Below are positions 39,001 to 42,000 of a stretch of DNA of 64,000 nucleotides, piece after piece. A program made the position numbers. Source of the DNA: Carcharhinus amblyrhynchos (lineage: Eukaryota); contig OZ336874.1 of the NCBI GenBank assembly GCA_965287045.1, forward strand, positions 58,094,001-58,158,000, given 5' to 3'. Every line of letters starts with the position of its first letter. Position 1 is the stretch's first letter.

Positions 39001-42000
39001 GTAGTGACAGATTGGACCATCACTTATACTTGTGAGGGAATACTGAGGCATCGGAGAAAAGGCTCCAAGGAGTCTGCAATGGCTTGACTATTCCACAAAG
39101 GTTCCATTTATGCTGGGCCTTTTTTTCAGGGGGGCTTTCAAATATTGCACTGCAAGGATAGAGAAAGTGTGAAGGTCAATACTCACACTCTAAGCTGCAG
39201 CTAACACTTTTCAGAAACATCAATATTGACTTGACAATTGTCCAAAGGGTTGGTGGCCAAGACTGACCTAAGAACTGACCTGCTGCAGAATTGGCCCACT
39301 TCCTTGCCAGGTTGGGCCTGCTGACATGGATGGCAGGCCCATCTCCAGGTTAACTAAGGCCCTCAGAACTGCAAAACCCCAATTTTTACTTCAATTGGGA
39401 AATTCCAGCCTCTGCTTTCTGTTTGTTCATCGGTATGTGTTCCAACTGTTTAGTAGTGCTTAAAGCGGTATCATTCAATTGAAAGCGATTTGCCTTTTTA
39501 TGTAAAAAACATTTTGGGTAGATGGACAGACACTTTGCATGTATAATGTGTGTCGCTTTCTAGATGATACTTTCAAATATATTTTAGCTTCATTTGAAGC
39601 AATTTTTAAAAGCGGCATCTCGGCCTTTTGGCTAAGATGCAAATAAGATCAAGCCTTGGAGGAGGAGCTATGCCTATTCCAATCAGCTTGGATCATGTAG
39701 ATCAAGCCCAAGACAGGTGGTGAGAGCCCTATCTTGTCAGCTTGGATCGGGAATGTCTCAACTTGTTGAGACTCTGAATTGGACTTGATTTGATTGAATT
39801 GGAATAAAAACAACAAAAAAAAATTGATTTTCCTCTACACTCTAAATGCTGTTAGGTGTTTAAATAGATTCTTTGTCTCAATATCATTTCTGACAGTACC
39901 ATTCCTTGTTACCCCTGTCTGAAATTTAAGATTTTTTTCTTAAACCATACAAAAGATATAATTTTATAGTTTTTTAAATTTTTATATTATGAATACAAGC
40001 AATTGTACTTAGAAGAGCAATCTACATGCACAGCATTATTACTTCATAATTTCTTAATGAAATGTTTAACTTGCACAGAACATGGCAACAAATCAGTCCT
40101 GAATTACCCACCCACAACTTCCCACCATTCTTCAAATGACTAATAATTAGGTAAACTGCACACTAAATCGAGAAATAAATGCTTTAATGACAGATAACCC
40201 CTTAGGGAAAATAGTTGTGTTCTGTAATGTGTCACCCGATTACACCTACTGCTTTGCAGAAAAATGAGATTGCCATTGGCATTCAGAAGTGTTATGAAAT
40301 ACGCCAATGCTAAAAAAAAATGATGGCCATTTAAATCTTGCGCCTTTAGAAGTGACAGCTTTAGATATGTTTTTGTTTCCATGGATATTAAATTACTGAT
40401 TTAGTACATAAATCAGAGTCTACACAGAACAATCATTTCCTCTGTTAGGAAAAACAGAAAAAATATTTGCTTTTCATTGCCATTTTTGACCTTCCAATGA
40501 AACCATAGGCACAATGGCTTTTGAAATGACTAATTCCTAAGAATGTAAATAGACACTTATCTTGTAATGTTTATTCTTTAACATTTTTCAGGTAGTTAAT
40601 TAGGAACCTAACAGGACTACATTTCAAAGAGCTGTTAATCAAGCAGTGTATGAAGTGTACGCTACTTGTGCTAGATTGTTCACTGAAAATATCCAACAGG
40701 AAAATTGGCACGATTGTGGTGCAGAGACGCAAAAATGTCAAAGAACAGTTTTACATGTTTTTTATAAATAAACTATTCTTTCTGTTGAATATTGTTGGAA
40801 GTGAATCGGTTTCAGAACTCACGTGCAAATTATTATACTTGTTCATGAACAATTGAATGATAATCATGCATAAGGATCCAATATGAGGTTCAAGGGGATT
40901 GAAAAGAAATTTTTTGTAGTATTAATTGATAAAATAAGTAAAATTTGTCTGAATAGATTTACTTTGCTTTAAACCTGCTAGATTAACTATGTACGTGTAG
41001 ACTTTATTCATTCTGCCTACCTCTCTGCCCATTTGTTGATGCTTAGATTTTCTTTAAAAGCAGCTCTAAAGTCAAGCAACGTTTATTGAAAGTCCATCTG
41101 TAGTGAAATTTCAAACACTGCACTATCGCAGGAAGTGATATCTAATCTGTTTTAAAAAGTACCTGGTTTCACTGTGCCTTATGTCTACAGTAAAGCAGTT
41201 TATTGCACTACTGTGCAAAGCAAATCAGCTCTAATTACTGATTAAGTTTATATCTCTGGACTTCATCATAAACCAAGCATATTTTTTTTTCAAAATCCCA
41301 GTTTGAAATCAATTTCACATTTAAGGTGCTGTACAATAGCTACCTCATGATTCCCAGATGAGATTTGTAATACGTGTAAATTTGCAGATCTCCACACCTG
41401 TGACAGTGAAAAGATGCAGAGATCAGCAGACTTTCTGCCAGCTTCTTTCAAACTACAAAAGAGACCTGCTTTAGTAATGACCAGATTTCACCTTGACTGC
41501 CTTCTCTGATTACATAGTAAACATGTAAATTTACTCCGTGTTGCATGCAATGTCACCGAGGGGTTGAATCAGAAGCTTACTTGATTATACAGTTGAAGTG
41601 TTTACATTGGCTGCATGATGGATAAATAACATAGTTACAGGGTCATGTAAATAGTATATCCCATCCTAAAAACACCTCCACTTGCATGCTTATCAGATTT
41701 GAACTCCTTTCTCAGCTAATGTAAATTCAAATCAAGGGCAAGCTTTTGGTAAGTGCTTGAAACTATTAATGTCAGAATCCCAGATGAATGCATGCTTTAC
41801 TCAAATATACCACCACCTAGCATAGTGAATTATGCAAACTGGTTGATACTTACCAGCTTCCCCATTCTATCTATACATTTTCCCAAGTTCATGGGGTCCA
41901 TTTAAAATTGAAGAGGAGGATTCTAATCTTAACTCTGCTGTGTAATAATAGTGTTAGAGTGTACTGAAAATCTTGGTTATCTCTTCTTTAGATGAAATAA

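What the first reader, a model, noticed from the sequence alone, without database searches (positions are those of the whole stretch)
39647..39772. Tandem RNA hairpin module with compensatory substitutions inside the U2-headed element
Seen: hairpin 1 (39647-39694) is GATC-AAGC-C-TTGGA-GG-AGG-[AGCTATG]-CCT-AT-TCCAA-TCA-GCTT-G-GATC. Hairpin 2 (39700-39748) is GATC-AAGC-C-CAAGA-C-AGG-[TGGTGAGAGC]-CCT-A-TCTTG-TCA-GCTT-G-GATC. Both keep the GAUC:GAUC base, bulged G, AAGC:GCUU stem, C/UCA 1x3 internal loop and AGG:CCU apical stem. The middle 5-bp stem changes from TTGGA:TCCAA to CAAGA:TCTTG, three fully compensated pairs. A third perfect hairpin GTCTCAAC-TT-GTTGAGAC follows (39755-39772). Inference: covariation between duplicated modules points to selection on RNA structure, such as a dimeric protein-binding or RT-recruitment site. 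The GATCAAG arm itself looks U2-derived. A resemblance to the GAUC:GAUC motif of 7SK is speculative.
Basis: partly seen in the sequence, partly recalled or inferred. Interest (0 to 1): 0.8.

Follow-up and report, generated by a model that had tools for sequence, protein, structure and literature searches.

The report
Twin hairpins in a U2-headed retroposon
A roughly 210-base mobile-element-like sequence starts with a piece of U2 spliceosomal RNA, ends in a poly(A) tail and carries two sister hairpins that kept their pairing while changing sequence; it looks like a relative of the crocodilian SINEU elements, apparently in a shark or ray genome.

Summary
H1 (39647-39694), H2 (39700-39748) and H3 (39755-39772) are as described. 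The two long hairpins share exact 10-nt and 12-nt arms. Their middle stems differ at three pairs, and all three stay Watson-Crick. Chance or neutral drift gives this in about 0.03-0.8% of simulations.

The hairpins lie in a 209-nt unit, 39615-39823. It has a U2 stem-loop I head (20/20 to Rfam U2 positions 7-26), four consecutive hairpins, AATAAA and an A-rich tail. That architecture matches SINEU, the U1/U2-headed poly(A) retroposons reported only from crocodilians (PMC4494074). The window's CR1 reverse transcriptase is closest to elasmobranch proteins.

My best reading is a retroposed copy whose body is a duplicated hairpin module kept folded in the active lineage.

Unproven:
- There is one copy in 64 kb and no eukaryotic genome collection was available, so family membership and covariation across copies could not be tested.
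- No target-site duplication was found.
- Plus-strand folding energy is unremarkable.
- The three changed pairs are contiguous, so one template-switch mutation could explain them without selection.
- No 7SK or ribozyme similarity was found.

Interest is moderate.

The parts
39615..39640 (+). H0, the head. It is U2 snRNA stem-loop I, with 39618-39637 matching Rfam U2 model positions 7-26. The stem is lengthened by three extra pairs (GCA at the 5' end with TGC at the 3' end) to a 26-nt hairpin.
   Evidence: 20/20 identical to the U2 consensus, 19.5 bits (gathering score 46), E 0.13; the 21-mer occurs once in the window, 0 expected.: -14.5 kcal/mol, z -5.03, 0/200 shuffles as good.
39641..39646 (+). 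A-rich linker between H0 and H1. Its last base, A39646, belongs to the repeated 10-mer AGATCAAGCC.
39647..39694 (+). H1, hairpin module copy 1. It has a 4+4-bp basal stem with a bulged G, a 1x3 internal loop, a 5-bp middle stem (plus one G-U), a 3-bp apical stem and a 7-nt loop.
   Evidence: -15.7 kcal/mol; 67.5 bits to model R1, which was built from H1 and H2 themselves.
39695..39699 (+). Linker ATGTA between the two modules.
39700..39748 (+). H2, hairpin module copy 2. It has the same arms, internal loop and apical stem as H1. Its middle stem differs at three adjacent pairs, all compensated, and it has a 10-nt loop.
   Evidence: -15.0 kcal/mol; 70.5 bits.
39755..39772 (+). H3, a short perfect hairpin (8-nt arms; RNAfold draws 7 bp and a 4-nt loop).
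   Evidence: -6.6 kcal/mol, z -2.66, 6/200 shuffles as good.
39773..39802 (+). Tail region. A near-repeat (CTGAATTGGA at 39774 and TTGAATTGGA at 39794) flanks ACTTGAT (39783-39789). That heptamer is complementary to part of the hairpins' 5' arm and competes with the H2 stem in the 216-nt fold.
   Evidence: in the 216-nt minimum-energy fold the 5' arm of H2 pairs with this region instead.
39803..39823 (+). AATAAA (39803-39808) followed by an A-rich tail with 18 A in 21 nt, ending in a run of nine A (39815-39823).
   Evidence: only 2 loci in the 64-kb window have at least 17 A in 21 nt on this strand, and only 5 runs of nine or more A.
39586..39600 (+). Small hairpin just upstream of the head (5 bp, 4-nt loop). 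Whether it belongs to the element, as a 5' extension, is unknown.
   Evidence: -4.9 kcal/mol, z -3.61, 4/200. It would lie inside the element only if the weak duplication candidate were real.

Best explanation
The hairpins are the body of one retroposed copy of a short, non-coding, poly(A)-tailed retroposon with a U2 snRNA-derived head. It is a SINEU-like element of about 209 nt (39615-39823), sitting in non-coding DNA about 12 kb upstream of a TLE (Groucho) exon, in what looks like an elasmobranch genome.

Shown:
- A U2 stem-loop I head in sense orientation.
- Four consecutive hairpins, then AATAAA and an A-rich tail on the same strand.
- Two of the hairpins are paralogues with exact arms and three compensated pairs.

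Inferred:
1. A single roughly 53-nt module was duplicated. Its 5' arm is a U2-like octamer that closes on an inverted copy of itself. The likely cause is reverse-transcriptase template switching at the repeated AGATCAAG, the same kind of event proposed for the repeated 5' additions and partial duplications in crocodilian SINEU-1.
2. The two modules then diverged while the element was still active, under selection to keep each helix. The folded RNA therefore mattered for propagation, most plausibly as a two-fold binding platform for a protein of the partner LINE or of the host, or for RNA stability. Its role would resemble that of the two 7SL-derived arms of dimeric Alu.
3. Transcription is from outside the element or by RNA polymerase II, since it carries a TTTT run in the head and an AATAAA signal. 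Mobilisation is by a poly(A)-using LINE such as Tx1 or L1.

This particular copy is probably an inert insertion.
For: - Head: 20/20 match to Rfam U2 positions 7-26. It is unique in the window.
- Tail: the A-rich tail lies 31 nt after H3 on the same strand as the head. Only 2 such A-rich loci exist in 64 kb, so by my arithmetic the chance of one falling within 50 nt is about 0.002.
- Coding: no open frame longer than 61 aa crosses the element. There is no tRNA and no Rfam family at gathering score.
- Fold: 39615-39775 folds into four hairpins as the minimum-energy structure, z -2.66.
- Paralogy and compensation. The result is improbable under neutral substitution.
- Published precedent (PMC4494074, Results and Discussion read): SINEU elements have U1 or U2-derived heads and a poly(A) tail. 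SINEU-1J has only a short U2-derived 5' end and a 3' half of unknown origin. Subfamilies arose by repeated 5' addition of U2 pieces and partial duplications. OligoT inside most families argues against polymerase III. Insertions occur with or without target-site duplication.
- Integrity: the 22 arm positions are identical between H1 and H2 and every stem is intact. This suggests a young copy or a constrained one (inference).
Against: - Only one copy is present in the window, so a repeat family is not shown.
- No target-site duplication was found. The best candidate is 9 of 11 in AT-rich sequence (39575 against 39821).
- No LINE in the window shares the tail. The CR1 element at about 15.8-17.0 kb ends differently.
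- Similarity to the published SINEU consensus sequences could not be tested.
- Kojima 2015 found no SINEU outside crocodilians, and this window is not crocodilian.
- Plus-strand folding energies of H1, H2 and the 126-nt stretch are within the range of shuffles. The minus strand scores better (z -3.65).
- In the 216-nt fold H2 is replaced by pairing with the tail.
- Selection on structure rests on three adjacent pairs in two paralogues.
Confidence: 0.5

Rival explanations
1. The element is a retroposon, but the preserved pairing is a mutational by-product and not the result of selection. A clustered change in one arm was copied onto the other arm by a short intrastrand template switch during DNA replication or reverse transcription, or the arms were made as inverted copies in the first place.
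For: The three changed pairs are contiguous (39656-39658 with 39680-39682 in H1; 39709-39711 with 39734-39736 in H2). They are the same trinucleotides swapped between arms. All changes are Watson-Crick to Watson-Crick with no G-U intermediates. PMC8794818 (passages read) reports that template-switch events converting several mismatches at once are statistically enriched in rRNA hairpins, and that such events can create new stems.
Against: A template switch repairs pairing only after one arm has changed, so a 3-nt cluster mutation is still needed. The rest of both helices (13 pairs each) is intact, and the arms are letter-identical while the loops differ completely. That pattern fits constraint. 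The same paper calls its evidence for stem maintenance circumstantial.
Confidence: 0.2
2. It is a one-off chimeric retrocopy and not a family. A LINE reverse transcriptase copying the 3' end of some polyadenylated structured RNA (a LINE 3' UTR or a host transcript) switched template onto U2 snRNA. The hairpins would then belong to that unknown source RNA.
For: Single copy in the window, AATAAA plus an A tail and a U2 piece at the 5' end. PMC4494074 (Discussion read) summarises snRNA-L1/Alu/mRNA chimeras made by template switching in human.
Against: Only about 24 nt of U2 are present and the match starts inside U2, at model position 7. From memory, such chimeras usually carry the snRNA up to its 5' end. 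The U2-like octamer recurs at the start of both hairpins, which needs repeated events or a duplication. This fits an evolving family better.
Confidence: 0.12
3. It is a functional small or long non-coding RNA gene transcribed from an upstream promoter. Its twin hairpins would bind a dimeric protein, as the reader suggested by analogy with 7SK.
For: All four hairpins are intact, the arms are identical, and the U2 stem-loop is lengthened by three fitting pairs. There is no target-site duplication. AT-rich, TATA-like sequence lies about 30-40 nt upstream of the head (reading only).
Against: No Rfam family reaches its gathering score, and no 7SK, snoRNA or ribozyme model matches the hairpins at E up to 10. 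The A-rich tail with AATAAA is encoded in the DNA, which is typical of retroposition. No promoter element could be tested with the tools at hand, and no conservation or expression data are available.
Confidence: 0.1
4. It is a chance arrangement, or DNA-level palindromes (for example remnants of inverted repeats of a DNA transposon), with no RNA role.
For: Plus-strand folding z-scores are modest. The symmetry is equal on both strands.
Against: The arm pattern is found twice here against 0 in 100 shuffles. The simulations give 0.03-0.8%. The hairpins lie between a sense U2 head and an A tail. The one match to the arm pattern in 596 Gb of prokaryotic genomes has a non-pairing interior.
Confidence: 0.03

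Closest known systems
SINEU (U1/U2 snRNA-headed SINEs of crocodilians; Kojima 2015, PMC4494074), especially SINEU-1J (short U2 head plus a 3' half of unknown origin) and SINEU-3 (the first 32 bp of U2 are kept)
   Same: A U2-derived 5' head, a short non-coding body, a poly(A) tail, an oligoT run inside the element, signs of repeated U2-piece addition or partial duplication, and no obligatory target-site duplication.
   Different: The host appears to be an elasmobranch, not a crocodilian. Sequence similarity to any SINEU consensus is untested. No copy number, Mariner-N4 target or Tx1-Mar partner is known here. A twin-hairpin body is not mentioned in the sections of that paper that I read.
Dimeric Alu (two 7SL-derived arms), named from memory as a functional analogy
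   Same: A small-RNA-derived retroposon made of two paralogous folded modules, followed by an A tail. There the folds are kept because a host protein binds them.
   Different: Alu has a 7SL origin and an internal polymerase III promoter. No homology to this element is implied, and protein binding here is only inferred.
snRNA-LINE/mRNA chimeric retropseudogenes made by template switching (summarised in the Discussion of PMC4494074)
   Same: An snRNA piece at the 5' end fused to a polyadenylated 3' part.
   Different: Only about 24 nt of internal U2 sequence are present. The U2-like octamer is repeated inside the body.
U2-targeting LINEs Keno and Utopia (PMC4640811; Results part 1 and section 8 read)
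   Same: These elements are linked to U2 and can acquire U2 sequence at their ends. The crocodilian Tx1-Mar partners of SINEU cluster with Keno (PMC4494074).
   Different: They insert so that the downstream U2 sequence starts at nucleotide 39. Here the U2 similarity ends at about nucleotide 27 (or 31 by recall), and the flanks are not U2.
7SK RNA stem-loop 1
   Same: Only the presence of GAUC paired with GAUC at the base of a hairpin.
   Different: No 7SK match at E up to 10. The length, context and remaining sequence are different.

Membership tests
SINEU (snRNA-headed SINE) | The 5' head is derived from U1 or U2 snRNA. | tested here: met
   39618-39637 matches U2 model positions 7-26, 20/20, at 19.5 bits. 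This is below the gathering score because only 20 of 192 positions are present.
SINEU (snRNA-headed SINE) | A 3' poly(A) tail. | tested here: met
   AATAAA at 39803-39808 and an A-rich tail to 39823. It is one of only 2 such A-rich loci on this strand in 64 kb.
SINEU (snRNA-headed SINE) | Short (under 500 bp) and non-coding. | tested here: met
   About 209 nt. The longest stop-free frame across it is 61 aa, and no real protein relatives were found.
SINEU (snRNA-headed SINE) | A dispersed multi-copy family sharing the same structure. | not testable with these tools
   There is one copy in the window.
SINEU (snRNA-headed SINE) | Sequence similarity of the body or tail to the SINEU-1, -2 or -3 consensus. 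| not testable with these tools
   The consensus sequences are in Repbase and in figures or supplements.
SINEU (snRNA-headed SINE) | Mobilised by Tx1-Mar LINEs, with a preference for Mariner-N4_AMi targets. | not testable with these tools
   No transposon library was available. No target-site duplication was found, which the paper also reports for some insertions.
U2 snRNA gene (RF00004) | A full-length U2, about 190 nt, with all stem-loops, scoring at or above the gathering score. | tested here: not met
   19.5 bits against 46. Only model positions 7-26 are matched.
7SK RNA | A match to the 7SK covariance model. | tested here: not met
   no 7SK match among the 5 matches listed at E up to 10 for 39300-40000; none at gathering score.
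Self-cleaving ribozymes and H/ACA or C/D snoRNAs in Rfam | A match to any such covariance model over the hairpins. | tested here: not met
   The only hits are a weak snR77 match upstream (39361-39437, E 2) and a 5.8-bit SCARNA6 fragment (E 3.3).
tRNA-derived SINE | A tRNA-like head. | tested here: not met
   ARAGORN finds no tRNA in 38500-40500.
snRNA chimeric retropseudogene | The snRNA part reaches the snRNA 5' end, and the 3' part is recognisable as a LINE, SINE or mRNA. | tested here: inconclusive
   The U2 match begins at model position 7 and covers 20 nt. The source of the 3' part is unknown. The criterion itself is recalled, apart from the summary in PMC4494074.

The most novel reading that the evidence does not exclude
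Cartilaginous fishes carry a hitherto undescribed family of U2-headed retroposons. Its body is an Alu-like dimer of a hairpin module that starts with a U2-derived octamer and is kept folded by selection, serving as a two-fold protein-binding platform for retrotransposition. Bolder still, this intact copy may be a domesticated structured RNA whose arms and tail are complementary to the 5' region of U2.
Probability: 0.2. Interest if true: 0.6.

Novelty: new member of a known kind. Interest (0 to 1): 0.35.

Why it matters
In the literature I could search, snRNA-headed SINEs are known from one paper and one vertebrate order. How they are transcribed and recognised is an open question in that paper.

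A second lineage in a distant vertebrate group would show that this route to making SINEs is recurrent. A body made of paired, compensating hairpins would also offer a concrete RNA feature to test for recognition by the partner LINE or a host protein.

If it is only a single dead copy, it is an ordinary repeat annotation.

Tried and rejected
1. Rfam. The whole window at gathering score gave 0 matches. The region 39300-40000 at E up to 10 gave only the short U2 match and four weak, unrelated hits. The hairpin region alone gave a 5.8-bit SCARNA6 fragment. So 7SK, ribozymes and snoRNAs are rejected.

2. Other copies in the window.
- The exact U2-head 21-mer with up to 3 mismatches was found once.
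- The arm pattern matched only H1 and H2. A first pattern with a wrong gap length found nothing.
- BLAST of 39600-39840 against the rest of the window gave nothing longer than a 15-nt exact match at 48105-48119.
- Covariance model R1 of the module, run with filters off, scored 13.3 bits (E 0.12) for the next-best hit.

3. Other copies elsewhere.
- The 61-aa minus-strand frame against the protein clusters gave no candidates.
- The 50-aa plus-strand frame against 1.84 billion representatives gave one hit, P0121, a low-complexity repeat protein judged spurious.
- The arm pattern in genome contigs (prokaryotes only) gave one match, in a Verrucomicrobiae MAG. Its interior does not pair, and about one chance match was expected by my arithmetic.

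4. Target-site duplication. None was convincing.

5. Partner LINE. The CR1 in the window has a different tail.

6. tRNA head. None was found.

7. TRF does not report the two modules as a tandem repeat.

8. Literature.
- No U2-headed SINE outside crocodilians turned up. The ranking would not have shown a paper holding only two of the terms.
- Searching the two arm motifs in full texts gave only unrelated primer hits, and none of the 15 listed papers held the 12-mer.
Repbase and Dfam could not be consulted.

9. I considered and rejected an H/ACA snoRNA reading by eye. The hairpins are too short, there is no ACA near a 3' end, and there is no Rfam support.
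Full report

Yes.

RNAfold gives the described structures for each hairpin and for the 126-nt stretch. The two long hairpins share an exact 10-mer at their 5' side (39646 and 39699) and an exact 12-mer at their 3' side (39683 and 39737). A pattern made of the arms occurs only at these two places in the window and never in 100 shuffles.

Within the helices the two modules differ only at the three outermost pairs of the middle stem, and each pair is Watson-Crick in both. 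The 8 basal pairs, two middle pairs and three apical pairs are unchanged. The loops (7 nt against 10 nt) and the linkers are unrelated.

The count of structure pairs finds 30 of 30 cells paired, against 23-57% for slid partners. Its fourth 'both-sides' pair is an artefact of the MAFFT register in the apical stem.

**2. Is it more than chance?**

Simulations were run.
- Six random substitutions in the ten middle-stem positions keep five Watson-Crick pairs in 1825 of 1,000,000 trials (7583 with G-U allowed).
- Six substitutions spread over all 16 inner helix positions keep every pair in 267 of 1,000,000 trials.
- A shuffled H2 interior forms the 5-bp stem in 8265 of 1,000,000 trials, and that stem plus the apical stem in 347.

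So independent neutral substitution after a duplication does not explain the pattern.

Against this, thermodynamics alone is unimpressive on the plus strand: z -1.65, -1.42 and -1.10 for H1, H2 and the 126-nt stretch. The minus strand scores better (z -3.65), partly because shuffles of the G+U-rich plus strand fold well.

H1 has one G-U on the plus strand. H2 has a C-A mismatch there that would be G-U on the minus strand. The pairs themselves therefore do not tell which strand matters, or whether RNA or DNA does.

**3. What surrounds it?**

Immediately upstream, 39618-39637 matches positions 7-26 of the Rfam U2 model at 20 of 20 positions. The score is 19.5 bits, below the gathering score of 46, because only stem-loop I is present.

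In the element this stem-loop is lengthened by three further pairs into a 26-nt hairpin, H0 (39615-39640; -14.5 kcal/mol, z -5.03).

The 161 nt from H0 to H3 fold as four consecutive hairpins in the minimum-energy structure (z -2.66, 2 of 200 shuffles as good). When the tail is included, the 5' arm of H2 pairs instead with a complementary heptamer in the tail. The structure is therefore not unambiguous.

H3 is followed by a 30-nt stretch with a near-repeat, then AATAAA (39803-39808) and an A-rich tail ending in nine A (39815-39823). Only two loci in the 64-kb window are this A-rich on this strand.

The unit is thus a sense U2 head, a structured non-coding body and an A tail, about 209 nt in all. 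No frame longer than 61 aa crosses it, no tRNA lies nearby, and no Rfam family reaches its threshold anywhere in the window.

**4. Where is it?**

- The window has no N.
- It carries a CR1-type LINE with an open 374-aa reverse-transcriptase frame (15916-17037, minus strand; RVT_1 E 3.3e-22). The LINE has a typical CR1 tail of a short GC hairpin and an 8-9-nt microsatellite.
- It also carries a TLE/Groucho Q-domain exon at about 51.9-52.0 kb on the plus strand (TLE_N E 4.7e-10).
- The named proteins most identical to the CR1 frame are from sharks and rays: Mustelus 80% over 66% of the query, Stegostoma 74%, Chiloscyllium 69% and Hypanus 63%. Bird and turtle proteins are at about 40-58%.

I therefore take the window for an elasmobranch, not a crocodilian and not human.

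**5. What is it most likely?**

The architecture is that of SINEU, described by Kojima 2015 (PMC4494074; I read the abstract, all of Results and all of Discussion). The relevant points of that paper are:
- SINEU are short retroposons with U1- or U2-derived heads and poly(A) tails.
- SINEU-1J has only a short U2-derived 5' end and a 3' half of unknown origin.
- SINEU-3 keeps the first 32 bp of U2.
- Subfamilies arose by repeated 5' addition of U1 or U2 pieces and by partial duplication, attributed to template switching.
- OligoT runs inside most families argue against polymerase III.
- Insertions occur with duplication, with truncation or with no change of the target.
- The paper states that no SINEU was detected outside crocodilians.

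The present element fits the head, tail, size and oligoT features. From my memory of the U2 sequence, the octamer that opens both hairpins corresponds to U2 positions 24-31. If so, U2-like pieces occur three times (39633-39637, 39645-39653 and 39699-39706). That is the kind of pattern the recurrent-addition model produces. This numbering is recalled and not tested: the Rfam match stops at position 26.

Keno and Utopia, the LINEs that target U2, insert so that the downstream U2 sequence starts at nucleotide 39 (PMC4640811; Results part 1 and section 8 read). This does not coincide with the end of the U2 similarity here, and the flanks here are not U2.

**6. Mechanism I commit to**

One hairpin module had a 5' arm made of a U2-like octamer and a 3' arm made of its inverted copy. 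It was duplicated by template switching at that octamer. The two copies then diverged in an active lineage that needed both helices.

The RNA fold would serve the retroposon, most plausibly as a two-fold protein-binding platform or as a stabiliser. This is comparable in role to the two arms of dimeric Alu, an analogy from memory. The poly(A) tail would give access to a poly(A)-using LINE.

The sequence anatomy is shown. The duplication route, the selection and the role are inferred.

**7. What weakens it**

- Only one copy is available. Nothing else in the window resembles it, and I could reach no eukaryotic genome.
- Translated frames found no real relatives.
- The single hit of the arm pattern in prokaryotic genomes is a chance match with a non-pairing interior.
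- No target-site duplication is visible.
- The three compensated pairs are adjacent and are the same trinucleotides exchanged between the arms. By my arithmetic this happens in 1 of 27 sets of three Watson-Crick replacements.
- Template-switch mutations can convert several mismatches of a hairpin at once and can create stems (PMC8794818, passages read). The compensation may therefore reflect two mutational events, not three selected pairs.
- The intactness of all stems and the letter-identity of the 22 arm positions fit either a young insertion or a constrained locus. The second would favour an RNA gene.

**8. Comparison with the known, and novelty**

It works like a SINEU-type retroposon and shows the family's three testable hallmarks: head, tail and short non-coding body. 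Copy number, homology to the SINEU consensus sequences and the partner LINE could not be tested.

It is not a U2 gene, not 7SK, not a known ribozyme or snoRNA, and not tRNA-derived.

In the full-text library I found no report of U2-headed SINEs outside crocodilians. Repbase, Dfam and the supplements (closed) could hold some.

I rate it a new member of a known kind, with moderate interest. The twin-hairpin compensation is a good lead for a covariation test on genomic copies but is not yet evidence of function.

Noticed in passing
window 15830-17037 (minus strand): A CR1-type LINE with an uninterrupted 374-aa reverse-transcriptase frame. Its tail is a short GC hairpin followed by an 8-9-nt microsatellite. 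The best named relatives are shark and ray proteins.
   Followed up: partly
hits P0002 and P0008: Proteins labelled as Klebsiella pneumoniae and Proteus mirabilis 'reverse transcriptase family protein' are 73% and 67% identical to this vertebrate CR1 frame. They sit on contigs of about 1.6 kb, so they look like eukaryotic contamination in bacterial assemblies.
   Followed up: no
window 51781-52035 (plus strand): An exon of a TLE/Groucho family gene (Q domain; TLE_N E 4.7e-10). The element lies about 12 kb upstream on the same strand, in an intron or upstream of the gene.
   Followed up: partly
window 784-1778: A degenerate minisatellite with a 24-27-bp unit and about 10-12 copies per block. 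It gives long spurious open frames on the minus strand.
   Followed up: partly
window 39462-39472 and 39609-39619: An 11-nt direct repeat (10 of 11 identical) whose second copy abuts the U2 head. It may be chance or a trace of a 5' extension.
   Followed up: no
window 39783-39789: A heptamer in the tail is complementary to part of the hairpins' 5' arm. In the 216-nt fold it displaces the H2 stem. With the two 3' arms, this makes three segments complementary to the U2-like octamer, which raises the untested idea of pairing with U2 itself.
   Followed up: no
window 36986-37243 (plus strand): A weak match to a DDE_Tnp_4 (Harbinger/PIF-type) transposase domain, E 0.0032, below the Pfam cut-off.
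   Followed up: no
window 32313-33170 (minus strand): Overlapping proline-rich open frames of 134-143 aa without any Pfam match. They are probably low-complexity sequence.
   Followed up: no
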